Assembly (NCBI GenBank): GCA_000004985.1
Contig: GG738857.1
Length of the DNA: 64,000 bases
Source of the DNA: Naegleria gruberi
Taxonomy: Eukaryota
Direction: 5' to 3' (one strand)
In this document: positions 8,007-30,959 of the stretch, piece after piece
Layout of the letters: every line of letters begins with the position of its first letter
Position numbering within the stretch: the first letter of the stretch is position 1
Made by a program: the position numbers and the translations under genes
The notes under the pieces: model-generated
Told to the model about the DNA's origin: nothing
Seen by the model: the letters and a program-made list of their open reading frames with translations, nothing else
Database searches by the model: none

Positions 8007-8128
8007 ATTTTATCAAAAGATAAATTGGATTTGACTTCCAGGAATATTAATTGTAAAGAGTCATTACAATTTTAAATACTATTTAAAAATCAAATTACAA
8101 AAATATTTAAATTTTAATTGAAAAAAAA

Positions 8129-12235: not shown

Positions 12236-13747
12236 ATGTATAAACTAACTCATCTTCCTCCTGAAATTATCATTAAAATCATCGAGTATCATGTAGAAGG
12301 CTTGGGTATTTCCCTCCTCGGAAACAAACTTGTTATTCTCGAATCAATTCAATCAGCCTTGTTGTGGGAAAGAATTTGCAAAGCCTTTTCGAATGAGTCA
12401 CTTATACGAAACTATTTGACTGACAACTTTTGGAAAAAGATTATTCTTGAAAACTTTGTGAGGGAAACTATCGGATTGGACAGCCAAACTCTGAAATCAA
12501 CACCTAGGAGGAAAATTATTGAACATATCAAATCAAAACAAGATGTAAAAACACTCTTGGTCAATTATCGAGAATTCTTAAAATTAATTACTGACTTTCC
12601 ACACTCAATTTCAATCTATCAACGATACTTCACTAGAAAGGATGTATTGGAAACATTTCAAATTGTAGTATTGGGACATCATCAAGCAGGAAAATCACAA
12701 CTCGTCAATTCATTTCTTCAAATTGAAACAAATCAATTGACCTCTCACAATAATGAAGTTTACACTCGTGTTGAGAAACATCCAATGACTCCTAATCAAA
12801 TGTTTCGAATGCAAGTAATGGACACTCACTTTCTTCATACCTGTTCTCAGCATATTTCACAAGCTCATGCCATTCTACTGGTTTGTTCACATTGTCAATT
12901 GGAGGAAACCTTGTTCGAAACTGAGCAAATTCTCAAACGATGCATTGAAATTAAACAATCATCTTCCTTTCCACTCATTGTAGCCTTGAACAAATCCGAC
13001 GAATCCAGAAAGAGTCTCAAGAAGAGACGTTCCAACAATGATTACAACAATAACTCGAGTCCTTCAACACCTAAATCACCAACCTCTAATAACTGCTGTC
13101 ATGGCTCATACCTACTTGCAGATCCATTCCTATCTTCACCCCCACCAATGTCCTCTTCATCCTCTCCATCATCGACGATATTCAGCAGTCCTCCTCCAAT
13201 ATGTTGTTTCTCTGCTCCAATCATTACAGGAAACAGCCTTCTACTGAGCAATAGTTATAATAACAATAGCAACTGTACTCATCACTTGATGAATACGAGT
13301 TCTGCGACCTTATCTACCATAGCCACAACAATAACAACAACTACAGCCATGAGTACTTCCAATATTTCTTCATCATACAATGGAACACCAACAAGCCTTC
13401 TATTGGGTTCTTCTTCTTCCTTCATTCAAAACAACGTTGGAGGAGGTAATTCTTCAACATGTTGTTCTCATCATCAGCATCATGTAAGAACAGAGGAGGA
13501 TGAATACAAAATGATGGAAAATCTATTAATTCGCTACGGAATGATCAATTATCGAATCATTAGAACGAGTGGTAAGGAGAGGTCGAATGTTGTGGAGGCT
13601 TTTGATGAGTGTGTGTTGCGAGCTAGCTTGAATCATGCCAAGTTGATGGTCGATGTGATTGATGCGGCTGTTGTTCATCACGTTGAAGCAACAGAAAAAT
13701 TCTTTAAAGCAGGCATGCTACAGAGAAAACGATGTGATTTATTGTGA
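12236..13747 (+). CDS. F-box-like N-terminus fused to an atypical Ras-superfamily-like GTPase domain, with a Ser/Thr/Asn-rich low-complexity C-terminal half. 503 aa.
   Basis: ATG at 12236. LPPEIIIKIIEYHVE is F-box-like. G1 P-loop VVLGHHQAGKSQLVNSF. G3-like VMDTHF, where DTAG's Gly is Phe. G4 ALNKSD (NKxD). Downstream are homopolymeric S/P/T/N tracts. Confidence 0.5.
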   Translation: MYKLTHLPPEIIIKIIEYHVEGLGISLLGNKLVILESIQSALLWERICKAFSNESLIRNYLTDNFWKKIILENFVRETIGLDSQTLKSTPRRKIIEHIKSKQDVKTLLVNYREFLKLITDFPHSISIYQRYFTRKDVLETFQIVVLGHHQAGKSQLVNSFLQIETNQLTSHNNEVYTRVEKHPMTPNQMFRMQVMDTHFLHTCSQHISQAHAILLVCSHCQLEETLFETEQILKRCIEIKQSSSFPLIVALNKSDESRKSLKKRRSNNDYNNNSSPSTPKSPTSNNCCHGSYLLADPFLSSPPPMSSSSSPSSTIFSSPPPICCFSAPIITGNSLLLSNSYNNNSNCTHHLMNTSSATLSTIATTITTTTAMSTSNISSSYNGTPTSLLLGSSSSFIQNNVGGGNSSTCCSHHQHHVRTEEDEYKMMENLLIRYGMINYRIIRTSGKERSNVVEAFDECVLRASLNHAKLMVDVIDAAVVHHVEATEKFFKAGMLQRKRCDLL

Positions 13748-14000
13748 TTTTTTTTAATTTGGATTTTTCAAATATTTTTTAAAACGTAACGGTTATGAGC
13801 GGGAATAAAATTGTAAATGAAGATTAACACATTGAGTTTGACTTAATGAATCAATATCACCTGCTTACTCAACTGCCACTCAACTCAATTGCTACAAAAC
13901 AGGTTCAAAGAAAAAAAGTTGAGCGGGATAAGAAGGGAAATCAAGTTGGGCTAAATTTCGAATAGTTGTTTGTAGAACTTACATTTTGTGTGTTGGGAGT

Positions 14001-16516
14001 TTATTGTTTGAGTTTTCTATTTTCCTCTTCCAATATTTTAATTCTTTCTAACAGGTTGCTATTTTCCATGGTGTTTTCATCCAAAAGTTTATATAGGTTG
14101 GTGTTTTCCTCTGCGAGTTTGGTATTTTCATCCGAAAGTTTATCAACTTCCTCTGCAAGTTGAGAGTAACTTCTTAATGGTGATATTTTCTTCAATTCTC
14201 CAACTTGTTTTTCAATATTCAAAGTGATATCTTTGATTTCACCTTTCAAGTATTTCAAAATATTCTCAATGGTTAACTTGTGAGAATAACAATTCAATCT
14301 TTTTGATGAATCTCTTTGAATCATGCTAATAATGCTTCTAATCAATATATTATTCACTCCTAAATCTGGATTAATTGATTGATTGATTAGTTTTTCAATT
14401 GCATAATGTAATTTCATTTCTCCCTCTGTTGTTGTCACAACTGTATAGAAATATTTTCCATGTCCACTTAAATATGGATACTTGTCATTATATTTAGAGA
14501 CATCTGGATCATTAACAAATGTTGAACATAGTTGCAGAGGACAATTTGCTAATAATTTCAATAAAATACATCCCAATGAAAATATATCACATGAAATGGT
14601 AATTTGTCCAACATTGTGAGCAAGCTTTTCATCATTATCACTTTTCAATAAATCATCAGAATAATTATCATGTGAAACTTCAGGAGACATGTAGGCAAAC
14701 TTTCCACGAGCAATTGTAATTGAATTACCTGTCTTGATAACTCTTGATGTTTCAAAATCAATTATCTTGTATAAATCTTGAACTTTGACAATATTTTGAG
14801 GATCTAAATCTCTGTGTAAAATATTGTGATCATGAATTGATTGAACTGAGTTCAATACTTTGATAAATATATCAAGAATTTCAATCAACTTTTCCTTAAT
14901 AATGAATCCATTTCTATAAATTCCATCTTGATTATTTCTTGAAATATAATTTGATAATGATTCCTCTCCAAGTTCCATCACTGTATACAAATGATTTTGA
15001 ATAATGTCACAATCAAAACATTTGATCTTTCCTTCAATGTCTGTTCTTTTCAATAAATTAATGGTTTCTTTTGTTGATTCTTCAGATTCCTCTGGGTCAT
15101 ATTTTAATTTTAATGCCCTTAATGATTTACTACTTTTGTGAAATACTTTGAATGCAACACCTTCACCTCCATATCCTAATACTGAAATGAAATCATAATT
15201 ATATTTGAAATAATTATAGAAATAATTGAGAGCTTTGAATACTTTTGATAAATCTCCTCTCAGCTCATTATATTTACAAATTATTTGTTTGTAATTTACA
15301 AATGTTTTCTCATTTTCAAACCACTTGTTGGCAAAATTCATAATTTCATTAATTTCCTGTTTTGAATAAAATGATGTTTCGAAATTTGTTGCAACTTGTT
15401 CCACAATATTCTTCAAATCTTTCATTCTTGTTGATTGACAGGGATTATCTTCAATAAATTTGTCCAATCTGAAACAAAATAAATAATAGTTAGCTCTTTC
15501 TGAAAGAACATTTTCAGTGGATAATTCTGAATGGTTCATTTGTTTCAATATTTGAAAAAAAATCAACTTTTCAACAAATATTGGTGTGTAGATAGGATTA
15601 AAATTGAATATTGTACTTTTTGGTGTTGGATTAAAGAGACTTGTTAATTCAATACCATAATATAAATCCTTTTCATCCATAAATATTTTGGAGTATTGTT
15701 CAATTATATTGCTTGACAGCTTTGTCTGAAGATTAATGGATTCTTCAATGGTTTTGGTTATAGAGGGTGAGAACCTTCTTGCATTTTCCTTGTTCAATTT
15801 AATTAATAAATAAATAAATATACTATCTTTTTTAAATGATTCATCAGCATGCTTAAGTGCCAATCCAGCTTGTTTAACAGATTCCAATATAAATTCTCTA
15901 TCTTTTTTCAATGATGAATCAGCATATTCAAGTGCATATCCATCTTGTTTGACAGACTCCAATACAATTTCTCTATCTTTTTTAAATGATGAATCAGCAA
16001 ATTCAAGTGCCAATCCATCTTGTTTGACAGATTCCAATACAATTTCTCTATCTTTTTTAATATTGAATCAGCAAATTCAAGTGCCAATCCATGTTGTTTA
16101 ACAGATTCCAATATAAATTCTCTATCCTTTTTCAATGATGAATCAGCATATTTGAGTGCTGGTCCATAGCGTATAACAGCTTCCAATATAATTTCTCTAT
16201 CTTTTTCCAATGATGAATCAACATATAAAAGTGTCAATCCATTTTGTTTAATAGCTTCCAACACAATTTCTCTATCTTTTTTAAATGCTGGATCAGCATA
16301 TTGAAGTGCCAACCCATTTTGTTTAACAGCTTCCAATACAATTTCTCTATCTTTTTTCAATGATGAATCAGCATTTTCAAGTGTTGATCCATTTTGTTTA
16401 ACAGCTTTCAACACATATTTCCTATCGGCCTATTGTTGCAATCATGAATCATCACACCAATAAAAATAATTATTTTCTCCACAGCAACAAATACCAACCC
16501 ACTCGTTTTTGTTCAT
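14001..16516 (-). pseudogene. Copy A of the DUF4116-repeat/atypical-kinase gene. Only ~8 repeats, and a 1-bp deletion near 16050-16055 shifts the frame (ORFs 14001..16037 and 15908..16414).
   Basis: The kinase domain and C-terminal coiled coil are about 95% identical to copy B. The repeat frame is broken where ttttttaa-tattgaatcagc replaces the unit sequence ttttttaaatgatgaatcagc. The conserved 5' block containing ATGAACAAAAACGAGTGG is present at 16516..16499. It could be a sequencing error in a repeat instead of true pseudogenisation. Confidence 0.55.
15790..16414 (-). repeat. Tandem 75-bp coding repeats (25-aa DUF4116-like units), ~8 copies, copy A.
   Basis: A 75-bp period (ttgtttaacagcttccaata(c/t)aatttctctatcttttttaaatgatgaatcagcatattcaagtgccaatcca...) encoding AVKQNGLALEYADSSFKKDREIVLE. 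Confidence 0.8.
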
Positions 16517-17598
16517 TTTTTTAAAGGTATTCTAGACCATCACATTCCGAATCAACTTGATGATTTTTACACCCAAAAAGAACAGTTTCAACTATTACAG
16601 ATGGGTTTTTTTGTTATTGGACGCCATCACATGATCTGTTAAGATTTGCATCCTCTTCTTGTTGATCCATTATGAATTGCTCCTCATCATCTGATTCCGA
16701 GGATCAGAACCAAGCTCTCTCAATCAAATCATCCACCATTAAATCTTGCTCATCTACTTCTGAATTCAACTTCTTAGTCACTCCTTGTTGTGTTTGATAA
16801 GGAATTTATTGCCTAATTTTTGATATATATTTTCAAATGTATGGAGTGTTCCTTTGTGTTGGTGTTTTCTCTATTTTTTTAGGCTTTGAAATAAGGCGCT
16901 AAGATCCACTCATTGATACTGATGAACCATGATCTCAATGAGGTCGAGGAAGATGGATCGAAGAAGAAGCCTATTGATGAATCATCACATAATTGGCATC
17001 ATGATGAAAATAGCAGTCTGGTTGACAGCTGTGTATGTGTAAATAACATCATTATTACTATTCATCTAGCGTTTACTCAATTCATATTCATTCTTATCAT
17101 GTGATTACATAGCTTATTAACCATTACGAACCGTGTGGTCCCATTCTTGCTCTGAATATAAAATTAAAAACCGATCAAAGTTGGTGGCAAGAATGAAAAA
17201 TTTACAAAATCGATCACAAATAAAATAAAATTCAAGTTTTGGTCACCAAAACGACCAAAACGCAGACCAAACAAGTTATTCAAGTTATTGTTGCTTTGAT
17301 TTTTAAATAATATATTTGATAAAATAAAAAGAATAAAAACGGAGCGCGGGAATAAAATTGTAGATGAAGCTTAACATATTGTAAATTTATTGTAAAGTAA
17401 TCTTTTTATGGTTGCATACTTTAATAACAAGCATCATGAATTGCTAGGCAACTCAAGAGTCACTTTAGGGTTGTAATATTTGGTATTGTTGCTGTGTTAC
17501 TATTATCTTTTTTAGAATGCATCCTTTTTTGTCATTTCCATTTCAGTCTTTGTGAAGAAACCTTTCGAATAGAGAAATTGCAAACAAAGAAACAAAAA

Positions 17599-18726
17599 AT
17601 GGGTGGAAAGCTCTCTTCGAATCACAATCATCATCAACACTCCAACAACACTCCACTTCTGCAACAAACTAAACATTCGAATAACAATGACAATCATCAG
17701 AGAATAGTTTTACTGGGAAATACTTCAAGTGGAAAGTCAACTATTTGTGAAATGATTCAATATCAGAAACAACATCAAGCAGATAAATCATGCAATACTT
17801 ACAACCTATTCTATAAGGTAGATTCGAATACAATTTCAAAAACTATTATTGAACAGATATTGTTTGCATCAAAGGATATATCTATTGAGGCAATTATTCG
17901 AGAATATACAAATGATTGCAATAATTTTGATAATTCTACACTTTTTGCATTGTGGAATGATCAGAAATTTAGAAATATTTATCAGAGCTGTCAAGATTCT
18001 CTCAATTTATTCGAAAATGTTGACATTTTTGTAAGGAAACTTAAGAATCATGAAAGTTTCATTCCAGATATTTACATTAAGGGAAATTCTTCTGGAATTA
18101 CAGAGTATGACATTAATTTTGATGACAAGAAAGTGACATTTGTGACTGCAGGTGGAAAAACAAGTGAAAGAAAAAAGTGGAATTTCTGCTTGCAAGGAAA
18201 TGTTTCCGTTTTGGTTTATGTTGTTTCGTTGGCAGAATTCAATCAATCAGGTTATGGAGATGAGAAGGTGAATAGAATGGACGAAAGTTTGAAACTTTAC
18301 AAGGAATTGATGACTCGTGTTTCGAATAGTGGTAATAATACGAGAGTTGTCTTACTGTTTACCAAACCAGATATAATGATGAGGAAACTGAGGAGTTACA
18401 TTGAATTTGGAAGATTATTCGAAACTGAAACACTTACTGATCTTTCACGAATTGTAAACGATTATCACGAAAGGGATGTTCTCAATACAATTATATCGAG
18501 TTTTTTAACCGAAACAAATAATATTTATGGGAAAATACCAGAATATCACATTATTCAGTCGATATCAGAATTGGACATTTCACAACTCGCCAAACTAATG
18601 TTGAATAATGAGAAAAATAGACATTATATTTCTAATTGCTTGTTTGAGAAAATATCGCTTGTGAGATGTTATCAATTAGTGATGGCTCAACAATTGACCG
18701 ATTTAACAATTAAGTGTCAATTATAA
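17599..18726 (+). CDS. Divergent heterotrimeric G-protein alpha-subunit-like protein (376 aa) with substitutions at catalytic positions.
   Basis: ATG at 17599 gives MGGKLSS, the consensus for N-myristoylation and S6. G1 is LLGNTSSGKSTICEMI, compared with the canonical LLLGAGESGKST. The switch II region reads FVTAGGKTSERKKWNFCLQGNVSVLVYVVSLAEF, compared with the canonical [32 protein letters not shown]. G4 reads LLFTKPD, compared with the canonical FLNKKD. The ORF-track start at 17494 is a TTG. The catalytic Gln of DVGGQ is Lys (TAGGK), and switch I (IKGNSSGITEY) lacks the RxxTxGI arginine. Convergent with kinase copy B across a 231-bp spacer. Confidence 0.65.
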   Translation: MGGKLSSNHNHHQHSNNTPLLQQTKHSNNNDNHQRIVLLGNTSSGKSTICEMIQYQKQHQADKSCNTYNLFYKVDSNTISKTIIEQILFASKDISIEAIIREYTNDCNNFDNSTLFALWNDQKFRNIYQSCQDSLNLFENVDIFVRKLKNHESFIPDIYIKGNSSGITEYDINFDDKKVTFVTAGGKTSERKKWNFCLQGNVSVLVYVVSLAEFNQSGYGDEKVNRMDESLKLYKELMTRVSNSGNNTRVVLLFTKPDIMMRKLRSYIEFGRLFETETLTDLSRIVNDYHERDVLNTIISSFLTETNNIYGKIPEYHIIQSISELDISQLAKLMLNNEKNRHYISNCLFEKISLVRCYQLVMAQQLTDLTIKCQL

Positions 18727-18957: not shown

Positions 18958-21900
18958 TTAATTTTGTTTGAGTTTTCTATTTTCCTCTTCTAATACTTTA
19001 ATTCTTTCTAATAGGTTGGTATTTTCCTCTACAAGTTGAGAGTAGCTCCTTAATGGTGAGATTTTCTTCAATTCTCCAACTTGTTTTTCAATATTGAAAG
19101 TGATATCTTTGATTTCACCTTTCAAAAATTTCAAAATATTCTTAATTGTTAACTTGTGAGAATAACAATTCAATCTTTTTGATGAATCTCTTTGAATCAT
19201 GCTAATAATGCTTCTAATCAATATGTTATTCACTCCTAAATCTGCATTAATCGTTTCATTGATTAGTTTTTCAATTGCATAATGTAATTTCATTTCTCCC
19301 TCTGTTGTTGTCACAACTGTATAGAAATATTTTCCATGTCCACTAAAATATGGATACTTGTCATTATATTTAGAGACATCTGGATCATTAACAAATCTTT
19401 CACACAATTGCAAAGGACAATTGGTTAATAATTTCAACAAAATGCATCCCAATGAAAATATATCACATGAAATGGTAATTTGTCCAACATTGTGAGCAAG
19501 TTTTTCATTGTCATCACTTTTCAATAAATCATCAGAATAATTATCATGTGAAACTTCAGGAGACATGTATGCAAACTTTCCACGAGCAATTGTAATTGAA
19601 TTACCTGTCTTGATAACTCTTGATGTTTCAAAATCAATAATTTTGTAATGATCTTGAACTTTGACAATATTTTGAGGATCTAAATCTCTGTGTAAAATAT
19701 TGTGATCATGAATTGATTGAACAGAGTTCAATACTTTGATAAATATTTCAAGAATTTCAATCAACTTTTCCTTATTAATGAATCCATTTCTATAAATTCC
19801 ATCTTGATTATTTCTTGAAATATAATTTGATAATGATTCCTCTCCAAGTTCCATCACTGAATATAAATGATTTTGAATAATTTCACAATCAAAACATTTG
19901 ATCTTTCCTTCAATGTCTGTTCTGTTCAATAAATTAATGGTTTCTTTTGTTGATTCTTCAGATTCCTCTGGATTATATTTTAATTTTAATGCCCTTAATG
20001 ATTTACTACTTTTGTGAAATACTTTGAATGCAACACCTTCACCTCCATATCCTAATACTGAAATGAAATCATAATTATATTTGAAATAATTATAGAAATA
20101 ATTGAGAGCTTTGAATACTTTTGATAAATCTCCTCTCAGCTCATTATATTTACAAATTATTTGTTTGTAATTATCAAATGTTTTCTCATTTTCAAACCAC
20201 TTGTTGGCAAAAATCATAATTTCATTAATTTCCTGTTTTGTATAAAATGACGTTTCAAAGTTTGTTGCAACTTGTTCCACAATATTCTTCAAATCTTTCA
20301 TTCTTGTTGATTGAGAAGGATTATCTTCAAGAAATTTATCCAATCTGAAACAAAATAAATAATAGTTAGCTTTGGTGCTTTGTAAATCAATTAGAGCAAT
20401 AATATCATTAGACAATTCTGAATGGTTCATTCGTTTCAATATTTGAAAAATAATCAATTTTTCAACAAATATTGGTGTGTAGATAGGATTAAAATTGAAT
20501 ATTGTACTTTTTGGTGTTGGATTAAAGAGACTTGTTAATTCAATAGCATAATATAAATCTTTTTCATCCATAAATATTTTGGAGTATTGTTCAATTATAT
20601 TGCTTGACAGCTTTTTCTGAATATTTAAGCATTCTTCAATGGTTTTGGATATAGAAGGTGAGAACTTTCTTGCATTTTCTTTGTTCAATTTAAATAGCAA
20701 ATAAATAAATTCTCTATCTTTTTTAAATGATGAATCAGCGTATTCAAGTGCTCGTACATTTTGTTTAACAGCTTCCAATACAATTTCTCTATCTTTTTTC
20801 AATAATGAATCAGCATATTTAAGTGCATATCCATCTTGTTTGACAGTTTCCAATATAAATTCTCTATCTTTTTTAAATGATGAATCAGCGTATTCAAGTG
20901 CTCGTACATTTTGTTTAACAGCTTCCAATACAATTTCTCTATCTTTTTTCAATAATGAATCAGCATATTCAAGTGTCAATCCATTTTGTTTAACAGTTTC
21001 CAATATAATTTCTCTATCTTTTTTAAATGATGAATCAGCATATTCAAGTGCCAATCCATTTTGTTTAACAGCTTCCAATATAATTTCTCTATCTTTTTTC
21101 AATAATGAATCAGCATATTCAAGTGCCAATCCATTTTGTTTGACAGCTTCCAATATAAATTCTCTATCTTTTTTAAATGATGAATCAGCATATTGAAGTG
21201 CTCGTACATTTTGTTTAACAGCTTCCAATATAATTTCTCTATCTTTTTTCAATGATGAATCAGCATATTGAAGTGCTCGTCCATTTTGTTTAACAGCTTC
21301 CAATATAAATTCTCTATCTTTTAGAAATGATGAATCAGCATATTTAAGTGCATACCCATCTTGTTTAACAGCTTCCAATATAAATTCTCTATCTTTTTTA
21401 AATGATGAATCAGCATATTTAAGTGCATATTCATTTTGTTTAACAGATTCCAATATAATTTCTCTATCTTTTTTAAATGATGAATCAGCATATTTAAGTG
21501 CCAATCCATTTTGTTTAACAGCTTCCAATATAATTTCTCTATCTTTTTTCAATATTGAATCAGCGTATTCAAGTGCCCACCCATTTTGTTTAACAGCTTC
21601 CAATATAAATTCTCTATCTTTTTTAAATGATGAATCAGCATATTGAAGTGCCAATCCATTTTGTTTAACAGCTTCCAATATAATTTCTCTATCTTTTTTA
21701 AATGATGAATCAGCATATTCAAGTGCCAATCCATGTTGTTTAACAGCTTCCAATACAATTTCTCTATCTTTTTTAAATGATGAATCAGCGTATTCAAGTG
21801 CATATCCATTTTGTTTAACAGCTTCCAATATAATTTCTCTATCTTTTTTCAATAATGAATCAGCGTATTCAAGTGCTGGTCCATAGCGTTTAACAGCTTC

Positions 21901-22533
21901 CAATACAATTTCTCTATCTTTTTTAAATGATGAATCAGCATATTGAAGTGCCCACCCATTTTGTTTAACAGCTTCCAATACAATTTCTCTATCCTTTTTA
22001 AATGATGAATCAGCATCTTCAAGTGCCGATCCATTTTGTTTAACAGCTTCCAATATAATTTCTCTATCTTTTTTAAATGATGAATCAGCAAATTCAAGTG
22101 CCAATCCATTTTGTTTAACAGCTTCCAATATAATTTCTCTATCTTTTTTAAATGATGAATCAGCGTATTGAAGTGCCAATCCATAGTGTTTAACAGCTTC
22201 CAATATAATTTCTCTATCTTTTTTCAATAATGAATCAGCGTATTCAAGTGCTGGTCCATAGCGTTTAACAGCTTCCAATACAATTTCTCTATCTTTTTTA
22301 AATGATGAATCAGCATATTGAAGTGCCCACCCATTTTGTTTAACAGCTTCCAATACAATTTCTCTATCCTTTTTAAATGATGAATCAGCATCTTCAAGTG
22401 CCGATCCATCTTGTTTAACAGCTTCCAACACATATTTCCTATCGGCCTATTGTTGTGATCATGATCATCACATTTTATATAATAATTATTTCACCACACA
22501 GCAACAAATACCAACCCACTCGTTTATGTTCAT
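18958..22533 (-). CDS. Copy B (intact) of the DUF4116-like repeat / atypical protein kinase / coiled-coil gene. Main exon 18958..22456 (~1166 aa), plus a proposed 18-nt 5' exon at 22516..22533.
   Basis: A single 3.5 kb ORF carries ~23 repeats of (E)AVKQNGxALEYADSSFKKDREIILE and a helical linker. The kinase domain has glycine loop LGYGGEGVAF, beta3 RALKLK, HRDLDPQN, DFETSR, YMSPE and DIFSLGCIL. The C-terminus LVEENTNLLERIKVLEEENRKLKQN is a coiled coil. A TAG stop sits immediately upstream in the repeat frame, and there is no in-frame ATG in 1.7 kb of repeats. A conserved ATG at 22533 is proposed to splice in across a 59-nt intron (GTTGGT...caacaatag). Confidence 0.75.
20690..22456 (-). repeat. 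Tandem 75-bp coding repeat array (~23 units, DUF4116-like), copy B.
   Basis: A perfect 75-bp periodicity, with mostly synonymous variation and a few replacement changes (N/D/H/Y, L/W/R, E/Q/K) between units. Both the repeat frame and the +1 frame of the same strand are open over long stretches. Confidence 0.85.
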
Positions 22534-24106
22534 TTTTTTTAAAGCTGTTCTCGCCCATCACATTCCGAATCAACTATCAAGATTTTTACACCAAGATTCA
22601 AAGAGATAAAACTTTGTGAAAAATGTATTCTCTTGATTTATTTTGAAATATTTATAAATTAGAACTAGTAAGTTAAGGGAAGTCATCAAAATTACACTTG
22701 GAGTAGGATGGTTTGAAAACGTCGAACATGAGGGTTGTTGAGAAAAATTAAAAAAGGAAATAATTAATAATATTAATAAATAATATAATTACAAAATAAA
22801 ATAATTAATAATACTACTAATTCAAAGTCAGGAAATTGATTGTTTGTTCAGGTAGATTTTCGATGAAACGACCGAAATTTTGGTTGTTGCTCCCAATACA
22901 GCACCTAGATGGCTGTGAGATTGGATGAAATTGTAGGTGGAGAACCTACCCTCAACTTTAACCTTTGGGAATTTGGGTAGGAACTCAGTAAGAGGAGAAC
23001 TTTCTGTAATTTCACAATGCACTCAGTTGTATTGTGTTACATGCTGTTCAACATTTACTGCTTTCATCTCGGTAAGCAGCATTCTCTGTCAATCATTAAA
23101 AACATACGATTTTCAAACATCTATTTTAGTAAGATTTCCTAATTGAAAATGCAAAACATACCAACATTAAAGCTAAATTATTGGATAAGGTGAACATTGT
23201 AATAATTCTGTTTAGCCAACAAGAACTTGGAACAATATTGGATCAACATCAGGTACATCACGACTCTGTTGATTCTTGGAGTGATTTCACATCTATTAAC
23301 TCCAAGAATTTCACCACATCATCTCATCATGATTTAAATAATAGCAATAATAGTAATTTTTGGAATTTAATCCTTCATCATGATTTGGAAATAATTTTAT
23401 TATTTGGAAAAATTCAAGTTGGTACATCATCATCGGAACAACTACCAACCATCATCATTGTTATTTATCATCATTATAATAGTAATATTTGTGGAAATAA
23501 ATCTGATAATAGTAATATTTTAGTGAAATTCAATATTTTCACTAAAATCATCATCACAGATTTATATATGATAATTTGGAAAATTTTCAATCTAGTATTG
23601 TTCAGCATGGTCAATTCCATCAGGTAAAATCACTTCCGAACATTTCCCTATTGGTTATCATGTATCTCAACATAATAAACAATATATTTATTATCAGATT
23701 TTCATAGTTTTGTGTTTTTACCAACTTCGGGGTATTCATGGTCACCAATCATGATTCATGCCAAAAGAACATAGCCAATCATCTTGAAACATTAATAAAC
23801 TTTTATTAGTACTATTGTAGATGTACTATATCAATTATTTCGTCTTGTTTCGTTGAAATCATGATTTTTCTGTTTTTAATTTCACATCACATACACCATA
23901 TTTGTTGATGTAAATTAGAAATGTAAATAATCCATTCTTGATTCTCTAATCGTGTTTTATTGTGTTTTGGTGTATTTAGGATTTTGAAATTATTCTGAAG
24001 TTATTCTTCATATAAATATGATTCTTCACTTCATGATATGAGGAGGGATTGATATCATGATTGTTTGGAAGTGTTGTACAAATTTTGGACACAACCTGAA
24101 TTGAAA

Positions 24107-24971
24107 TCAGGAAGAAAGAGTCAAATCTTTATCACCATATAAAATAAGATCAATGGTTGTTTCCTCAAACATTGTGCTTCTTTGAAGAATTGAAATATCG
24201 CCATCAATTCTTTCACGTTGATTGATGAATCTATTTCGAACTTGCCTACGACGATAGTTTTTGAGGAGTGGATTGCAAATCCTTCCAGAGAGGCATCTGA
24301 ATTGATTATTATTGACTCTGGAGCGTCGAGCTCTAACCAAGAGCCTTCGGATTATTGGATAATTTTTCGTTATACCCTCAGATCTTTGGCAGGGCCTCGA
24401 TTCACTAGTATAGTTGAATTCCATCCTTTTGAATCTTGTAAACAAGAAAGGAAGTTCACAAAGGAAACAACACACTGTATCATCTCCATCTCATCCTAAA
24501 TAAAGAGTGGACACACCACTTCCTCCCAAAAACTGTTGCGCTCATTAATCTTTGGTAAGGGATTAATTTCTGAGTGAGGTTTTTCATCAATGTTTTTTTC
24601 TTATCCATGTTTTGAAGATCCAACTATTGATAACTTTTTTTTTACATCCTTCAAAGCAGGTTCCAGGCTGTTTCACCATTAAGGTGGTTCAGCCCCCGAG
24701 CTTTAATACCCAATTGTCTAAATATTATATGAACTGTATTTTGTGCGTTTACTATCGAAACATGCCATCGTTTATCTTTCCAAGATAAACCTGTATTCGT
24801 CTTTGGGACAACGTTGATAGGATTTAAAGAATAGGTTATAATTTGGTTTTGTAACATAGAGTCTATCTCTCTCCTTATCCATGTTTTCTCTTTCTGAGAG
24901 AACTTCTGTAGCCGTAAAGATGTTTCCTCTGTCTTTCCAGGAAAGAGTATCGCTGAAAAATGTTGATTCAT
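24107..24971 (-). mobile_element. Degenerate reverse-transcriptase fragment of a retrotransposon, with multiple frame breaks.
   Basis: ORF 24651..24971(-) contains ...QNQIITYSLNPINVVPKTNTGLSWKDKRWHVSIVNAQNT, the RT domain 1-2 signature (pS.Sp...PvvlVpKkdG.wR.cvDyR.LN). ORF 24107..24475(-) contains FNYTSESRPCQ...(F.Y..PFG-like) then DLILYGDKDL (YxDD-like), in the correct N-to-C order but in different frames. Confidence 0.4.
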
Positions 24972-26279
24972 CCTTATTTGAGTTGTTTTATTACCATAAT
25001 GGCAAAGGTTACTGTATGTGAAGAATCCACCTTAATTTGTAATTTTTTGTTCTGAAGCAGCAAACCAATGACGGAAAATAATATTAGGAAAAGACATCAT
25101 GTTTACTATTTTATTTGATGAAATCAAGTGGAGAATACATAAAACAGATGTTGCTACAAGAAAACACAATGTTAATAATAAAAATATAATTAATTATTGA
25201 AATAATTCAAGGAACTGGCTTTCCATCATGCATAATCTTTACGTAATTGCTCAGCAAAGAGCTTGGAAATTGTTTCACCAATCTTTCCCTTTTCTTGATT
25301 GATATATCTCAACAATAATTCAAGGTGGAAAATCAGCAAGATTTCCAACCTTGAAATTTACCTTGTTGGAAAATTTACCATTAGTGAATTTTATTTATGG
25401 TGCAATGATGATGACCATTAAGATATTTTCCTTAATGATCGGAAGTGAACTTGTTGATGATATTGATGATAAAAGATATGATGAAGCGAAAATTCCACAA
25501 CTCGATGAATACTAAGTGGAAAAATTCCAACTCTCTTGATGGTGATATTAGACATCCCTACTAATGATACTATGTTGTTGAAATTGATGATGATTCACCA
25601 ACTTGAATTTGTCCAATATCAAAATTACTATCTAATTCCATAACGATAAACTTCCACATAAAACTACTATTATTACTATTATATTGATGATGTATAGATG
25701 ATGAGGTTCCATTCTTGGAGTGGGAAGTTGAAGAACCACTCCGAAAATAAGCTACTCATAAAATTGATATTTTTTTTTGAATGCAAGATACGTCTTGGTT
25801 GAGTTTACTATTCTTTCGATGTCTTTGAGGCTCAAAACTGTGCAATTGGCTTCAGACTCAATATTAAGGAAGTATTGCTTCCATTTTTATTTTGCTTACT
25901 GGATTTTCCAGGAAAGATTTCTCTTAATATTGATAGACGTGGTACTGATAATTTTATAACTGTTAATGGTTTTGGTCCAAAATATGTCAGTAGTGGTACT
26001 GTTATTGCACGAGATAATTCTAAAGGTTATGAAATTTTTAATGCAAATAGAATTTATGATTTATTGTAAATACAAAATGAAGAAAATCAATAAAACTATT
26101 AAATAAATATTTTGTGAAATTGTTATGGCTGATGAAACACTTCTAGTAGTAGTACTTCCATATCTATTAATTGAATTGTTTACGGGAGGAAAAAAAAAAC
26201 TACTTTCATCAAAATTAACGCCTCCAGATGTGCATCCACAGCGCTGGCTATAACAAGAAAATGGACTTGTTGTACAATA

Positions 26280-26825
26280 CTACTCTTGTTGTGTAGAATA
26301 TTTTTGGAACTTTGGTTTGATAGTAATTGTCAAAGGATAATACTCATCAGGAATAGTAGAATTGTCTACCAATCCGAATCCGGTATGCATTATCGCAAAG
26401 AACTTTGAACATCCACAAATACTCTGAACAGCATCAGCATAAGGGTACAAACTGAAAGATGTACCAGGATTAATACATTGATTGTCTGTGTATCTGTAGC
26501 GAACACGATCTGCAAAGAAAATATTTTGAATATCTGTTCTAATTGAAGAATTTCCTCTGTAATAAGGTTTGTCAAGTGAAACATCAAAAGTATAAATTTT
26601 ACATCCTACTGATGAATCCACAAATTTTTTGACTCCATCAAGTTTTAAACTAAAAGGTGTAGTGTAACTTCTATTGGGAATAATAATAGTAATTGGGTTA
26701 TCACCAGAAATCTCTATTACAGAATCTGTTGGAAGATCTTTAACATTGATCAACACATTCGCACAACTCACACATACAAACAATAGCAAGAGCAATAAAA
26801 GAGTGTTAAGAAGACTTCTAGGCAT
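26280..26825 (-). CDS. Small secreted Cys-containing protein (181 aa), hypothetical.
   Basis: ATG at 26825. The N-terminus MPRSLLNTLLLLLLLFVCVSCANV is a signal peptide. The ORF is clean. It is flanked by retroelement debris on both sides, so it could be a host gene or element-derived. Confidence 0.4.
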   Translation of the reverse strand: MPRSLLNTLLLLLLLFVCVSCANVLINVKDLPTDSVIEISGDNPITIIIPNRSYTTPFSLKLDGVKKFVDSSVGCKIYTFDVSLDKPYYRGNSSIRTDIQNIFFADRVRYRYTDNQCINPGTSFSLYPYADAVQSICGCSKFFAIMHTGFGLVDNSTIPDEYYPLTITIKPKFQKYSTQQE

Positions 26826-27508
26826 TGTTTTCTTGTTTGTTGACTCATCTCAATTTGCCACCGCAACTAAATAGAATTGCAAAGAAGAAATGGGTGACCT
26901 TTCATGTCCACTTAAACAAAAAAGATCAATAAAAATGATCCCAAAACGATTATTATAACATATCAGGTAGTTAAATCCAAAGTGAAAGGACGTCCATACA
27001 GTCAAATGATCCACAAACATGTCAATCCCCATTGATTCTGTGTCACCCACATAAAATAATATTCGTAATTAATAATTTGTATATTTGGGTCTATTTGTCA
27101 GATATTTGAGTACCTCTTTTTGAGTTATTGTATTGTTGTCAAGCTTTGTAAATTCTCATGAAAGACTCAATGATAGTAGATGTTACTGAACTATATGCTG
27201 TGGTAATGTTTTTCGCAAATTCTTTAGATACAACCTGATTTTCTGGTTTTACAGTGTAGAGACTTAAATAATCTCCAATAAAACTACACCAAACACATTT
27301 TAATGTGAAATTCATAGGAGTTGTTCCCTCAAATATATATAGGAATTATCAGATGTATAACTTTCCGAATTTGAGTGATACCAAAATTGGTACCTTATCT
27401 ATCATAGGTTGGATCTACAGTACAATATCTAGATATTCCAACTAAATCTGGTTCAGATATCTGGACCATTCAAACATAATTTTTTTCTACATTGATTTAC
27501 AATTTTGA

Positions 27509-28537: not shown

Positions 28538-29030
28538 CGGAATATTCACTTCTGGAATTACAGAGTATGACATTAATTTTGATGACAAGAAAGTGACATT
28601 TGTAACTGCAGCTGGAAAAACAAGTGAAAGAAAAAAGTGGAAATGTTTCCGTTTTGGCAGAATTCAATCAAACAGGTTATGGAGATGAGAAGGTGAATAG
28701 AATGGATGAAAGTTTGAAACTTTACAAGGAATTGATGACTCGTGTTTCGAATAATGGTAATAATACAAGAGTTGTCTTACTGTTTACTAAACCAGATATA
28801 ATGATGAGGAAATTGAGGAGTTACATTGAATTTGGAAGATTATTCGAAACTGAAACACTTACTGATCTTTCACGAATTGTAAACGATTATCACGAAAGGG
28901 ATGTTCTCAATACAATTATATCGAGCTATTTGAATGCAATAAATAATATTTATGGGAAAATACCAGAATATCACATTATTCAGTCGATATCAGAATTGGA
29001 CATTTCACAACTCGCCAATGTTGAATAATG
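28538..29030 (+). pseudogene. Truncated pseudo-copy of the G-alpha-like gene, homologous to 18090..18726 and lacking the N-terminal GTP-binding half.
   Basis: Sequence from ttctggaattacagagtatgacattaattttgatgacaag onward is ~95% identical to 18090-18726. It has a ~35-bp internal deletion (aatttctgcttgcaaggaaatgtttccgttttggtttatgttgtttcgttggcagaattc becomes aaatgtttccgttttggcagaattc) and a divergent C-terminus. 3'-UTR homology continues to ~29190. Upstream of 28538 the homology is replaced by retroelement-derived sequence. Confidence 0.7.
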
Positions 29031-30806
29031 AGAAAAATAGACATTATATTTCTAATTGCTTGTAATTGCTTGTTTGAGAAAATATCGCTTGTGAGATGTT
29101 ATCAATTAGTGATGGCTCAACAATTGACCGATTTAACAATTAAGTGTAAATTATAAAGTTTAAGGATGAAGTAATAGTTTTCTGCAGAATAAATTGCATC
29201 CATATTGAGTAGGACTGTATGCATCATCTGCCTCTCAACTTTGTTCACAAAATAGTTCAAAGCTGATCAACTTGGGAAATTTCCAAATGCCACGCAAAAA
29301 GATTGGATTGTTATTCTCACAAGTTAACCATTAAAAGAGAAATCGAAATGATTTATTGAACCTTTCAAGTGAAATGAACAAACTGTTCAAATTTCAATGG
29401 CCCAGTTTGAAATCAATATATTTCGCATAGTTGTTTGTGGAACTTACATTTTGTGTGTTGGGAGTTTATTGTTTGAGTTTTCTTATTTCTTCTTCCAACA
29501 TTTTAATTCTTTCTAATAGGTTGCTATTTTCCATTGAAAGGTTGGTGTTTTCCTCTGCAAGTTTGTCAACATCCTCTAATAGGTTGGTATTTTCATCCGA
29601 AAGTTTATCAACTTCCTCTGCCAGTTGAGAGTAACTTCTTAATGGTGAGATTTTCTTCAATTCTGCAATTTCCTTTTCAATATTCAAAGTGATATCTTTG
29701 ATCTCACCTTTCAAGTATTTCAAAATATTCTCAATTGTTAACTTGTGAGAATAACAATCCAATCTTTTTGATGAATCTCTTTGAATCATGCTAATAATGC
29801 TTCTAATTAATATGTTATTCACTCCTAAATCTGGATTAATTGATTCATTGATTAGTTTTTCAATTGCATAATGTAATTTCATTTCTCCCTCTGTTGTTGT
29901 TATAACTGTATAGAAATATTTTCCATGACCACTAAAATATGGATAATTATCATTATATTTCGAGACATCTGAATCATTAACAAATCTTTCACACAATTGC
30001 AAAGGACAATTGGTCAATAATTTCAATAAAATACATCCCAATGAAAATATATCACACGAAATGGTAATTTGTCCAACATTGTGAGCAAGCTTTTCATTGT
30101 CATCACTTTTCAATAAATCATCAGAATAATTATCATGTGAAACTTCAGGAGACATGTATGCAAACTTTCCACGAGCAATTGTAATTGAATTACCTGTCTT
30201 GATAACTCTTGATGTTTCAAAATCAATAATTTTGTATAGATCTTGAACTTTGACAATATTTTGAGGATCTAAATCTCTGTGTAAAATATTGTGATCATGA
30301 ATTGATTGAACTGAGTTCAATACTTTGATAAATATATCAAGAATTTCAATCAACTTTTCCTTATTAATGAATCCATTTCTATAAATTCCATCTTGATTAT
30401 TTCTATAAATATAATTTGATAATGATTCCTCTCCAAGTTCCATCACTGTATACAAATGATTTTGAATAATTTCACAATCAAAACATTTGATCTTTCCTTC
30501 AATATCTGTTCTTTTCAATAAATTAATGGTTTCTTTTGTTGATTCTTCAGATTCCTCTGGATTATATTTTAATTTTAACGCCCTTAATGATTTACTACTT
30601 TTGTGAAATACTTTGAATGCAACACCTTCACCTCCATATCCTAATACTGAAATAAAATCATAATTATATTTGAAATAATTATAGAAATAATTGAGAGCCT
30701 TGAATACTTTTGATAAATCTCCTCTCAGCTCATTATATTTACACACTATTTGTTTGTAATTATCAAATGTTTTCTCATTTTCAAACCACTTGTTGGCAAA
30801 AATCAT

Positions 30807-30856
30807 NNNNNNNNNNNNNNNNNNNNNNNNNNNNNNNNNNNNNNNNNNNNNNNNNN
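30807..30856. other. Assembly gap (50 N) inside kinase copy C. By alignment to copy B it replaces ~350 bp.
   Basis: A run of exactly 50 n. Flanks align to copy B 20200-20221 and 20570-20600. Confidence 0.95.
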
Positions 30857-30959
30857 AGCCATAAATATTTTGGAGTATTTTTCAATTATATTGCTTGACA
30901 GTTTTGTCTGAATATTTAAGCATTCTTCAATGGTTTTGGATATAGAAGGTGAGAACTTT

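What the first reader, a model, noticed from the sequence alone, without database searches (positions are those of the whole stretch)
17599..18726. G-alpha-like protein lacking the canonical catalytic Gln and Arg
Where all characterised G-alpha subunits have [12 protein letters not shown] (the Gln is essential for GTP hydrolysis), this protein has TAGGKTSERKKW. Its switch I reads IKGNSSGITEY and lacks the Arg of RxxTxGI. The NKxD guanine-specificity motif is TKPD. The P-loop, the SERKKW block and the MGxxxS myristoylation signal are retained. The combination predicts a membrane-targeted, nucleotide-binding but GTPase-impaired (constitutively GTP-bound or pseudo-GTPase) G-alpha.
Basis: partly seen in the sequence, partly recalled or inferred. 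Interest (0 to 1): 0.55.

Follow-up and report, generated by a model that had tools for sequence, protein, structure and literature searches.

The report
Naegleria G-alpha lacking catalytic residues
This Naegleria gruberi gene encodes a true relative of the G-protein alpha subunit whose GTP-hydrolysing residues have all been replaced; it belongs to a small clade of such proteins, named so far only from Naegleria, that probably still bind GTP at the membrane but hydrolyse it slowly or not at all.

Summary
ORF 17599-18726 (+) is N. gruberi XP_002679518.1, annotated only as "predicted protein". It passes the Pfam G-alpha threshold (156 bits against 48.8) and models as a two-domain G-alpha fold.

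Three independent alignments agree on the substitutions relative to human Gαi1: R178→K, T181→S, D200→T, Q204→K, R205→T, G42→T, E43→S and N269→T. Switch I contains no Arg and the start of switch II contains no Gln, so no indel can rescue them.

It is not a one-off or a decaying gene. A 63%-identical orthologue keeps all the altered motifs, with dN/dS about 0.36.

The protein sits in a clade of 13 representative sequences plus one fragment (NJ bootstrap 60/60). All named members are Naegleria. The clade is marked by TKPD, a YHIVN G5 motif, a family-specific C-terminal [FY]ISPCL extension and an MGxKxS N-terminus.

- None of the 13 members covering the position has the Arg finger.
- None of the 12 covering the P-loop has Gly42.
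- Only one of 14 has the catalytic Gln.
- The P-loop Lys, the Mg-binding Ser/Thr, the G3 Gly, Lys/Asp of G4 and the ERKKW/NRM switch elements are kept.

Best reading: a myristoylated, guanine-nucleotide-binding, hydrolysis-deficient G-alpha-like switch that is probably uncoupled from classical receptor and Gβγ interfaces. The biochemistry is untested. Closest precedents are plant XLG proteins and Rnd/RhoH/κB-Ras-type GTPases.

The parts
17599..18726 (+). Complete single-exon ORF (375 aa plus stop) of the G-alpha-like protein, N. gruberi NAEGRDRAFT_65329 / XP_002679518.1
   Evidence: Pfam G-alpha 155.9 bits. AF2 model pLDDT 87.5, pTM 0.86. Foldseek top hits are all G-alpha.
17599..17616 (+). 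MGGKLS: N-myristoylation consensus (Gly2, Ser6). There is no Cys3 for palmitoylation.
   Evidence: Read from the sequence. MGxKxS/T is present in 9 of 11 clade members with an N-terminus. Modification not tested.
17617..17700 (+). His/Asn/Gln-rich low-complexity linker where canonical G-alphas have the Gβγ-binding αN helix
   Evidence: AF2 predicts coil with pLDDT 40-51 for residues 1-30. It is poorly conserved and of different length in the orthologue.
17716..17742 (+). G1 / P-loop GNTSSGKST. GxxxxGKS/T is kept, but Gly42→Thr and Glu43→Ser.
18073..18108 (+). Switch I / G2 YIKGNSSGITEY. Arg finger (Gαi1 R178)→Lys161. Mg-binding Thr181→Ser164.
18139..18180 (+). G3 / switch II FVTAGGKTSERKKW. 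Asp200→Thr183, catalytic Gln204→Lys187, Arg205→Thr188. Gly203 and SERKKW are kept.
18256..18300 (+). Switch III region GDEKVNRMDESLKLY, close to canonical EDEEMNRMHESMKLF
   Evidence: R242 retained
18352..18372 (+). G4 LLFTKPD. Asn269→Thr; Lys270 and Asp272 kept. [TSV]K[PVA]D, mostly TKPD, is the signature of the clade.
18544..18567 (+). β6 / G5 YHIIQSIS, aligned to THFTCATD (Cys325→Gln, Ala326→Ser)
   Evidence: AF2 strand 315-318 followed by a short α5, 324-335.
18604..18723 (+). Clade-specific C-terminal extension (aa 336-375) with the HYISNCLF ([FY]IS[PN]CL) and LTDLTI motifs. It replaces the distal α5 / receptor-coupling tail.
   Evidence: No Pfam match even at E≤10. The canonical profile alignment stops at residue 274. 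pLDDT 65-78.
28549..29210 (+). 5'-truncated, frameshifted duplicate of the gene (codon ~164 to the 3' UTR). 89.5% nt identity, with 17-, 18- and 5-nt deletions and a 10-nt tandem insertion. TAGGK reads TAAGK. Probable pseudogene, annotated as the 108-aa EFC46775.1.

Best explanation
The gene encodes a functional, divergent G-alpha-family protein of a Naegleria-centred clade. It retains the two-domain G-alpha fold, the guanine-nucleotide binding site and the GTP-sensing switch elements. It has lost every residue that canonical G-alphas use to hydrolyse GTP: the Arg finger, the catalytic Gln, the DxxG Asp and the G12-equivalent Gly.

Most likely mechanism (inferred, not shown):
- It is N-myristoylated and membrane-associated.
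- It binds GTP and adopts a switch-II 'on' conformation.
- It has very low intrinsic GTPase activity, so its signalling state is set by expression, localisation, nucleotide exchange or partner binding rather than by a timed hydrolysis cycle. This would resemble Rnd/RhoH/κB-Ras among small GTPases.
- It has no predicted αN helix, and its α5 tail is replaced by a clade-specific C-terminal module. It therefore probably does not work as a classical GPCR-coupled, Gβγ-bound subunit.
For: Shown by the analyses:
- G-alpha homology and fold.
- Catalytic substitutions under three alignment methods.
- The gene is under purifying selection. The ORF is intact in a 63%-identical orthologue, NG86 gives dN 0.26, dS 0.73, ratio 0.36, and all five altered G-boxes are essentially identical between the two.
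- The same TAGGK motif recurs in a roughly 25-33%-identical N. gruberi paralogue, D2VG73.
- Clade with NJ bootstrap 60/60.

Within the clade, catalytic positions are lost or variable:
- R178 in 0 of 13 members covering the position.
- G42 in 0 of 12.
- Q204 in 1 of 14 (K, R, D, T, S elsewhere).

Within the clade, nucleotide-binding and γ-phosphate/Mg-sensing positions are kept:
- G40 11/12, G45 11/12, K46 10/12, S/T47 11/12.
- S/T at T181 14/14, G203 13/14.
- K270 13/13, D272 13/13.
- Invariant Asn at the S151 position.
- R208 13/14, W211 13/14, against a mean column identity of 26%.

This pattern is the opposite of plant XLG2, which lost K46 and DVGG and barely binds nucleotide (bioRxiv 10.1101/795088).

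Support from related proteins:
- Replacing the three P-loop residues that include the G42-equivalent (TAQ in place of the canonical residues) slowed GTP hydrolysis in N. fowleri Gα1/Gα2 chimeras (PMC9283941).
- MGxKxS/T is conserved in 9 of 11 clade N-termini.
- The N-terminal 30 residues are predicted disordered, and the C-terminal extension has no Pfam match.
Against: - No biochemical data exist for any clade member. Nucleotide binding, Mg2+ dependence and hydrolysis rate are all inferred.
- Loss of the DxxG Asp (D200→T) and Glu43 could weaken Mg2+/nucleotide binding, as argued for XLG2.
- GTPases without a catalytic Gln can still hydrolyse (PMC12314375).
- The AF2 model was driven by an alignment containing canonical G-alphas, so it is not independent evidence for the fold details. 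It contains no ligand.
- Expression of the gene was not checked, because no transcript data were available.
- Absence of Gβγ and receptor coupling is inferred only from the missing αN and altered C-terminus.
Confidence: 0.55

Rival explanations
1. It is still a working GTPase timer. Hydrolysis is carried out by an alternative mechanism. One option is catalytic residues supplied in trans by a GAP, as RapGAP's Asn thumb does for Rap, which lacks Gln61. Another is solvent occlusion and water positioning without a Gln, as proposed for Rheb and κB-Ras. The Lys residues at 161 and 187 might partly substitute for Arg/Gln or for a cation.
For: - Precedents for Gln-less hydrolysis exist (PMC12314375 and references therein).
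- Naegleria encodes more than 100 RGS-domain proteins (PMC9283941).
- The RGS/effector-facing switch II helix SERKKW, switch I SSGI and switch III NRMDES are well conserved.
- Lys conservatively keeps the positive charge at the Arg-finger position.
Against: - RGS domains act by stabilising the G-alpha's own Gln and Arg and supply no catalytic residue for the water (general knowledge; also the description in 10.1101/795088).
- Four separate catalytic or transition-state positions are altered at once (G42, R178, D200, Q204).
- Across the clade the Q204 position is highly variable (K, R, D, T, S), which is not expected for a catalytic residue.
Confidence: 0.2
2. It is a nucleotide-free pseudo-GTPase or 'decoy' like Arabidopsis XLG2. 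It acts as a scaffold whose partner binding is independent of nucleotide state.
For: - XLG2 shows the same kind of lesions: no Arg finger, a basic residue (Arg) at the catalytic Gln position, the DxxG Asp lost and G42 replaced. It binds GTPγS 100-1000 times more weakly than canonical G-alphas, yet still binds RGS and Gβγ (10.1101/795088).
- Here D200→T and E43→S remove two acidic residues of the Mg2+/phosphate site.
Against: - Unlike XLG2 (K46→A, DVGG→RLNP, A326→Q), this protein and nearly all clade members keep the P-loop Lys and Ser/Thr, the switch I Ser/Thr, G203, and K270 and D272 of G4, with a small residue at A326.
- Conservation of these positions among paralogues averaging 26% column identity is hard to explain without ligand binding.
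Confidence: 0.18
3. It is a decaying gene or annotation artefact. The odd motifs would be drift in a pseudogene of the large Naegleria G-alpha expansion.
For: - A nearby copy (28549-29210) is clearly a truncated, frameshifted pseudogene.
- The gene lies in a recently duplicated, repeat-rich region.
- The protein is annotated only as 'predicted protein'.
Against: - The 375-codon ORF is intact and has a conserved start.
- An orthologue at 63% identity has an intact ORF and identical altered motifs, with dN/dS about 0.36.
- The clade-wide conservation pattern argues against drift.
- The AF2 model is confident.
Confidence: 0.03

Closest known systems
Canonical heterotrimeric G-protein alpha subunits (Pfam PF00503; e.g. 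human Gαi1, N. fowleri Gα7 PDB 6NE6)
   Same: - Ras-like domain with an inserted helical domain.
- GxxxxGKS/T P-loop.
- Switch I xSGI and switch II GGxxSERKKW.
- Switch III NRMxES.
- xKxD.
- N-terminal MGxxxS.
   Different: - No Arg finger (Lys instead).
- No catalytic Gln (Lys instead).
- DxxG Asp→Thr, Gly42→Thr, Glu43→Ser.
- No predicted αN helix.
- α5 shortened and followed by a 40-residue clade-specific extension.
Plant extra-large G proteins (XLG1-3; Arabidopsis XLG2)
   Same: - G-alpha-homologous domain without the Arg finger.
- A basic residue at the catalytic Gln position.
- DxxG Asp lost and Gly42 replaced.
- An 'atypical G-alpha' whose function may not depend on a GTPase cycle (10.1101/795088; PMC8584482).
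   Different: - XLGs are plant-specific and about twice the size, with a long N-terminal Cys-rich/NLS region.
- They have also lost the P-loop Lys and the G3 glycines, and bind nucleotide very poorly.
- The Naegleria protein is G-alpha-sized and myristoylation-tagged, and it keeps all the core nucleotide-binding residues.
- The loss is independent: the clade falls within the protist G-alpha hits and one member still reads DVGGQR.
Rnd1-3, RhoH and κB-Ras: atypical small GTPases with substitutions at the Ras G12 and Q61 equivalents
   Same: Both the G12-equivalent (G42→T) and the Q61-equivalent (Q204→K) are replaced while the nucleotide-binding motifs stay intact. In those proteins this yields a predominantly GTP-bound state regulated by other means (general knowledge; κB-Ras in PMC12314375).
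   Different: - They belong to a different GTPase family: no helical domain and no built-in Arg finger to lose.
- The analogy is functional only and is untested here.
N. fowleri Gα1 with the unusual P-loop 23-TAQ-25 (Bosch et al. 2022, PMC9283941)
   Same: A Naegleria G-alpha whose non-Gly residue at the G42 position and non-acidic residue at E43 were shown to slow GTP hydrolysis and abolish RGS responsiveness.
   Different: - Nothing in the paper text read suggests that Nf Gα1 lacks the catalytic Gln or Arg, and it is described as hydrolysing GTP, only slowly.
- It is not known to carry the TKPD / [FY]ISPCL clade features.

Membership tests
G-protein alpha subunit family (Pfam PF00503) | Sequence score above the curated Pfam gathering threshold | tested here: met
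   155.9 bits against a 48.8 cut-off, E=1.9e-45, profile positions 12-306 of 333. All 13 sequences in alignment A1 match PF00503.
G-protein alpha subunit family (Pfam PF00503) | Two-domain fold: Ras-like GTPase domain with an all-helical domain inserted before switch I | tested here: met
   AF2 pLDDT 87.5, pTM 0.86, with helices 46-159 between β1 and switch I. The Foldseek top 50 PDB hits are all G-alpha chains, E about 1e-17, TM 0.6-0.76. Caveat: the MSA contained canonical G-alphas.
G-protein alpha subunit family (Pfam PF00503) | G1 P-loop GxGESGKST | tested here: inconclusive
   The GxxxxGKS/T core is present (GNTSSGKST), but Gly42→Thr and Glu43→Ser.
G-protein alpha subunit family (Pfam PF00503) | Intrinsic Arg finger in switch I (RxxTxGI; Gαi1 R178) | tested here: not met
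   Lys161 sits at the aligned position and there is no Arg anywhere in PDIYIKGNSSGITEY. Arg is present in 124 of 136 non-clade hits and in 0 of 13 clade members.
G-protein alpha subunit family (Pfam PF00503) | G3 DxxGQ with the Mg-site Asp and the catalytic Gln (Gαi1 D200, Q204) | tested here: not met
   The motif reads TAGGK: D200→T183 and Q204→K187. Gln is present in 125 of 136 and Asp in 134 of 136 non-clade hits.
G-protein alpha subunit family (Pfam PF00503) | G4 NKxD guanine-specificity motif | tested here: inconclusive
   The motif is TKPD. The specificity-determining Lys and Asp are kept and Asn→Thr. TKxD is also seen in 8 of 136 other G-alpha hits.
G-protein alpha subunit family (Pfam PF00503) | N-terminal αN helix that binds Gβγ | tested here: not met
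   Residues 7-34 are His/Asn/Gln-rich low complexity, predicted as coil with pLDDT 40-51, and are not conserved in the orthologue. Actual Gβγ binding is not testable with these tools.
G-protein alpha subunit family (Pfam PF00503) | C-terminal β6-TCAT-α5 helix ending in the receptor-coupling tail | tested here: not met
   G5 reads IQSI. The predicted α5 is only 12 residues (324-335) and is followed by a clade-specific 40-residue extension. The Pfam alignment stops at profile position 306 of 333 and the canonical HMM stops at residue 274.
G-protein alpha subunit family (Pfam PF00503) | GTP binding and hydrolysis activity | not testable with these tools
   Needs recombinant protein assays.
Plant extra-large G proteins (XLG) | Long N-terminal extension (Cys-rich region, NLS) fused to a C-terminal G-alpha-like domain; plant lineage | tested here: not met
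   The protein is 375 aa with only 39 residues before the P-loop. The organism is the heterolobosean N. gruberi.
Plant extra-large G proteins (XLG) | Loss of the P-loop Lys and G3 glycines, giving negligible nucleotide affinity (10.1101/795088) | tested here: not met
   K46, S47, G203, K270 and D272 are all retained. Affinity itself was not measured.
Pseudo-GTPase, nucleotide-binding but catalytically inactive class (Rnd/RhoH-like) | Intact nucleotide-binding motifs combined with substitutions at the catalytic and G12-equivalent positions | tested here: met
   Sequence pattern. The resulting constitutive GTP-bound state is not testable here.

The most novel reading that the evidence does not exclude
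Naegleria and its relatives evolved a distinct class of G-alpha-derived, myristoylated membrane switches. The class is marked by TKPD, YHIVN and a new C-terminal [FY]ISPCL module.

As a group they have given up the intrinsic Arg-finger/Gln GTPase mechanism, the αN/Gβγ interface and the α5/GPCR-coupling tail. On this reading the G-alpha fold has been repurposed as a receptor-independent, GTP-locked (or exchange-regulated) signalling scaffold.

This would be a second, independent origin of 'atypical G-alphas' besides plant XLGs, and one with the nucleotide pocket preserved.
Probability: 0.35. Interest if true: 0.6.

Novelty: new variant of a known kind. Interest (0 to 1): 0.45.

Why it matters
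Heterotrimeric G-alpha signalling is defined by a built-in hydrolysis timer. The only characterised G-alpha-like proteins that lack it are the plant XLGs, whose mechanism is still debated.

An independent protist clade that removed the Arg finger, and in nearly every member the catalytic Gln, yet conserved the nucleotide pocket and the switch II/III machinery, would be a natural experiment. It would show which parts of the G-alpha fold are needed for signalling without a GTPase cycle.

It also bears on inventories of G-protein signalling in Naegleria, including the pathogen N. fowleri, where G-alpha subunits have been proposed as drug targets (PMC9283941). Some 'G-alphas' counted by HMM searches may not cycle at all or respond to RGS proteins.

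The importance is moderate. The gene has been in public databases since 2010, the Naegleria G-alpha expansion is known (PMC3971589), and nothing here is biochemically demonstrated.

Tried and rejected
- **Single-sequence AF2** gave an unusable model (pLDDT 34). It was replaced by a run on a 150-sequence alignment.
- **The search for homologous proteins** had very low recall for this family. It returned 2 hits with the protein and 3 with the clade profile, missing N. gruberi paralogues known to be in the collection. The exhaustive phmmer search was used instead. For the same reason, presence or absence of an N. fowleri or N. lovaniensis orthologue of this particular protein could not be settled.
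- **Anantharaman et al. 2011** (Gene 475:63, PMC3396428) surveyed Naegleria G-alphas and may already mention inactive versions. It is not held in the library, so prior description could not be excluded.
- **Conserved gene neighbourhood.** I asked whether the flanking DUF4116-repeat kinases are functionally linked. The G-alpha-like/kinase pair is duplicated within the window. Two other clade members on metagenomic contigs have no kinase neighbour, and the N. gruberi paralogues could not be retrieved. The adjacency is treated as a local segmental duplication, not a functional link.
- **C-terminal CaaX-type lipidation** was considered for ...KCQL and rejected. The Cys is at position -3, not -4, and it is not conserved in the clade.
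- **The C-terminal 90 residues** match no Pfam family even at E≤10.
- **An indel hiding the Arg or Gln** was rejected.
- **Lys187 replacing Mg2+** in neutralising the phosphates is an idea only. No test was possible without ligand modelling.
Full report
**What is there**

The window is Naegleria gruberi nuclear DNA. Several of its ORFs are identical to GenBank N. gruberi proteins from one 573-kb scaffold. The finding's ORF, 17599-18726 on the + strand, is a single uninterrupted 375-codon reading frame beginning MGGKLSS. It is identical to EFC46774.1 / XP_002679518.1 / UniProt D2V8Y8, named only 'predicted protein'.

It matches Pfam G-alpha (PF00503) at E=1.9e-45 and 155.9 bits, against a gathering cut-off of 48.8, over profile positions 12-306 of 333. 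It also matches hundreds of solved G-alpha chains, the best at E=6e-17.

An AlphaFold2 model built on a 150-sequence alignment is confident (mean pLDDT 87.5, pTM 0.86). It has the Ras-like core with an inserted helical domain. Its 50 best Foldseek matches in the PDB are all G-alpha subunits (Gs, Gt, G13, Gq, Gi) at E about 1e-17 and TM 0.6-0.76. The model leans on canonical G-alphas in its alignment, so it confirms compatibility with the fold rather than proving details.

**Checking the observation**

I tried three methods:
- phmmer against PDB sequences;
- a profile HMM built only from canonical G-alphas.

All three give the same mapping:

| Gαi1 position | Role | Residue here |
|---|---|---|
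| G42 | Ras-G12 equivalent | Thr42 |
| E43 | P-loop acidic residue | Ser43 |
| R178 | Arg finger | Lys161 |
| T181 | Mg2+ ligand | Ser164 |
| D200 | DxxG Asp | Thr183 |
| G203 | γ-phosphate contact | Gly186 (kept) |
| Q204 | catalytic Gln | Lys187 |
| R205 | switch II | Thr188 |
| N269 | G4 | Thr255 |
| K270 | G4 | Lys256 (kept) |
| D272 | G4 | Asp258 (kept) |
| C325 / A326 | G5 | Gln320 / Ser321 |

One phmmer alignment (yeast Gpa1) opens a two-residue gap at the Arg. This is immaterial, because PDIYIKGNSSGITEY contains no Arg and TFVTAGGKTSERKKW contains no Gln.

- The Arg position holds a Lys.
- The DxxG Asp and the Ras-G12-equivalent Gly are also lost.
- TKPD keeps the two specificity residues and is not itself a lesion. 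TKxD appears in 8 of 136 other G-alpha hits and, from general knowledge, in Rac/Cdc42.

**It is not a singleton and not decaying**

The exhaustive search found 2,620 relatives at E≤1e-3 but only five at E≤1e-30.

The closest is P0001, from a metagenome contig. It is 63% identical over the full length. Every altered motif is essentially identical in it: LLGNTSSGK, FIPDIYIKGxSSGI, TFVTAGGK, LLFTKPD, EYHIIxSIS and HYISNCLFEK. Nei-Gojobori gives dN 0.26, dS 0.73 and a ratio of 0.36. The altered active site is therefore under purifying selection.

In a neighbour-joining tree of 136 sequences, the query groups with 12 other 50%-identity cluster representatives with 60/60 bootstrap support. P0002, an orthologue fragment, clearly belongs with them too.

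Every member that carries a name is Naegleria:
- N. gruberi D2VBI2, D2VG73, D2VVW3 and D2VGB3;
- N. lovaniensis XP_044550044.

The rest come from metagenome or SRA assemblies. The contig carrying P0027 has a proteasome subunit whose best named match is the heterolobosean Acrasis kona at 75%. The clade may therefore extend beyond the genus, but that organism is unidentified.

The clade has its own signature:
- [TSV]K[PVA]D, mostly TKPD, instead of NKxD;
- xYH[IV][VI]N at β6/G5;
- a conserved VxNSII helix;
- a C-terminal extension with [FY]IS[PN]CL and L[TS]D[IL] motifs, which matches no Pfam family even at E≤10;
- an MGxKxS/T N-terminus in 9 of 11 members that have one.

**The conservation pattern is the key evidence for mechanism**

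Among the 136 non-clade G-alpha representatives:

| Position | Canonical residue present in |
|---|---|
| R178 | 124 of 136 |
| Q204 | 125 of 136 |
| D200 | 134 of 136 |
| G42 | 97 of the 112 that cover it |

In the clade the catalytic positions are lost or variable:

| Position | Canonical residue present in |
|---|---|
| R178 | 0 of 13 |
| G42 | 0 of 12 |
| Q204 | 1 of 14 (P0012, which still reads DVGGQR; the others have K, R, D, T or S) |
| D200 | 8 of 14 |

The positions that bind the nucleotide or sense Mg2+ and the γ-phosphate are almost invariant in the clade:

| Position | Retained in |
|---|---|
| G40 | 11 of 12 |
| G45 | 11 of 12 |
| K46 | 10 of 12 |
| S/T47 | 11 of 12 |
| Ser/Thr at T181 | 14 of 14 |
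| G203 | 13 of 14 |
| K270 | 13 of 13 |
| D272 | 13 of 13 |
| Asn at the S151 position | invariant |
| E207 (switch II) | 11 of 14 |
| R208 (switch II) | 13 of 14 |
| W211 (switch II) | 13 of 14 |
| R242 (switch III) | 9 of 13 |

This is set against a mean column identity of only 26%. A family that no longer bound guanine nucleotide would not be expected to hold these positions. Arabidopsis XLG2, the characterised 'decoy' G-alpha, has lost K46, the DVGG glycines and A326, and binds GTPγS 100-1000-fold more weakly (bioRxiv 10.1101/795088).

The pattern fits a protein that still binds GTP and still switches, but has dispensed with the intrinsic hydrolysis machinery. Two further points support this:
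- In N. fowleri, swapping in a three-residue P-loop segment with a non-Gly, non-acidic pair at the G42/E43 positions measurably slowed hydrolysis and abolished RGS responsiveness (PMC9283941).
- Simultaneous substitution of the G12 and Q61 equivalents is the hallmark of GTP-locked small GTPases such as Rnd and RhoH (general knowledge) and κB-Ras (PMC12314375).

**What it probably does not do**

Canonical G-alphas hold Gβγ with an amphipathic αN helix and couple to receptors through the long α5 helix and C-terminal tail.

Here residues 7-34 are His/Asn/Gln-rich low complexity. They are predicted as coil (pLDDT 40-51) and differ in length and sequence in the orthologue. Other clade members have even shorter N-termini.

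The predicted α5 is only 12 residues long. It is followed by the clade-specific 40-residue extension (pLDDT 65-78), and canonical profiles stop aligning well before it.

I infer, but cannot show, that these proteins are not classical GPCR-coupled heterotrimer subunits.

**Rival explanations**

- **Active GTPase with another mechanism (0.20).** Candidates are a trans-acting GAP, or water positioning without Gln as in Rap, Rheb and κB-Ras (PMC12314375). Supporting points are the huge Naegleria RGS repertoire and the well-kept switch surfaces. Against it, RGS domains work through the G-alpha's own Gln and Arg, and the Q204 position is highly variable across the clade.
- **Nucleotide-free XLG2-like decoy (0.18).** The loss of D200 and E43 favours this. 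The retention of K46, S47, G203, K270 and D272 argues against it.
- **Pseudogene or artefact (0.03).** This is contradicted by the orthologue comparison, although a real pseudogene copy lies nearby.

**Genomic context**

The gene lies between paralogous protein kinases that carry long arrays of DUF4116 repeats: 14004-16037 on the - strand and 18961-22431 on the - strand. A third such kinase is at 29469-31894 on the - strand.

Immediately upstream of the third kinase, at 28549-29210, is a 5'-truncated copy of the G-alpha-like gene:
- 89.5% nucleotide identity;
- it starts at about codon 164;
- it is broken by 17-, 18- and 5-nt deletions and a 10-nt tandem insertion;
- TAGGK is mutated to TAAGK.

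GenBank annotates a 108-aa fragment of it as EFC46775.1. The convergent pair of G-alpha-like gene and kinase was therefore duplicated as a unit, and one G-alpha copy died. Two other clade members on metagenomic contigs have no kinase neighbour, so I do not read the adjacency as functional.

**Comparison with what is known, and novelty**

By homology and fold this is a member of the G-alpha superfamily. By the mechanistic criteria that define a G-alpha subunit it fails: Arg finger, catalytic Gln, DxxG Asp, αN helix and α5 tail.

Functionally, the nearest characterised things are:
- plant XLGs, an independent, larger and more degenerate case;
- Rnd/RhoH/κB-Ras-type GTPases, an analogy only.

The lineage-specific diversification of G-alpha in N. 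gruberi is published (PMC3971589), and 13 G-alphas are catalogued in N. fowleri (PMC9283941). Neither text mentions members lacking the catalytic residues. The most relevant older survey (Anantharaman et al. 2011) could not be read, so prior mention cannot be excluded.

Loss of the catalytic Gln is also not unique to this clade. Eleven of 136 other protist G-alpha representatives carry M, A, V, C, S, R or H there.

I therefore class this as a new variant of a known kind. It is real, conserved and mechanistically suggestive, but it rests on sequence inference alone. Interest 0.45.

Noticed in passing
window 28549-29210 (+): A 5'-truncated, frameshifted duplicate of the G-alpha-like gene. It has 89.5% nt identity, indels of 17, 18, 5 and 10 nt, and TAGGK mutated to TAAGK. 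A 108-aa piece is annotated in GenBank as the protein EFC46775.1. It is probably a pseudogene mis-annotated as a gene.
   Followed up: yes
window 13952-16621, 19024-22594, 29417-32486 (all - strand): Three tandem paralogous genes, 92-96% nt identical in the kinase part. Each encodes a protein kinase preceded by a long array of DUF4116 repeats (17 Pfam repeat hits in the largest), with 75-nt periodic self-similarity. The G-alpha-like gene or pseudogene lies convergent to two of them, which indicates a recent segmental duplication.
   Followed up: partly
window 22600-28500: The stretch between the duplicated units has few long ORFs. Several short minus-strand ORFs lie at 27450-28510, directly upstream of the truncation point of the pseudogene copy. 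They could be an inserted element that caused the truncation. Not examined.
   Followed up: no
window 12236-13747 (+): A 503-aa protein (EFC46773.1, named 'Ras family small GTPase' in UniRef) with only a weak Ras-domain match (E=9e-7) in its middle. It is another atypical GTPase-like gene next to the cluster.
   Followed up: no
window 49766-50965 (+): The 399-aa predicted protein EFC46778.1 shares a 90%-identity cluster with EFC38866.1 on a different N. gruberi scaffold, so it is a recent inter-scaffold duplicate. Function unknown.
   Followed up: no
related proteins P0075, P0077, P0121 (from; motifs): A separate set of uncharacterised G-alpha representatives has Met at the catalytic Gln position (DVGGMRSER) together with TKxD in G4. 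P0075 and P0077 keep the Arg finger, while P0121 has Tyr there. Others carry Ala, Val, Cys, Ser, His or Arg at the Gln position. Loss of the catalytic Gln thus appears recurrent among protist G-alphas.
   Followed up: no
L002 (Logan SRR15442450 contig, 10.9 kb), gene at 7001-8116: The clade member P0027 sits on a contig from an unidentified eukaryote. Its proteasome alpha subunit is most similar to a named sequence from Acrasis kona (75%), not Naegleria. The TKPD/[FY]ISPCL clade may therefore occur in other heteroloboseans.
   Followed up: partly
clade member P0012 (ENA contig, 372 aa): This is the only clade member that retains a canonical DVGGQR switch II, while already having VKPD, the YHIVN G5 and the FISPCI C-terminal module and lacking R178. 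This suggests that the C-terminal module and the loss of the Arg finger preceded the loss of the catalytic Gln.
   Followed up: partly
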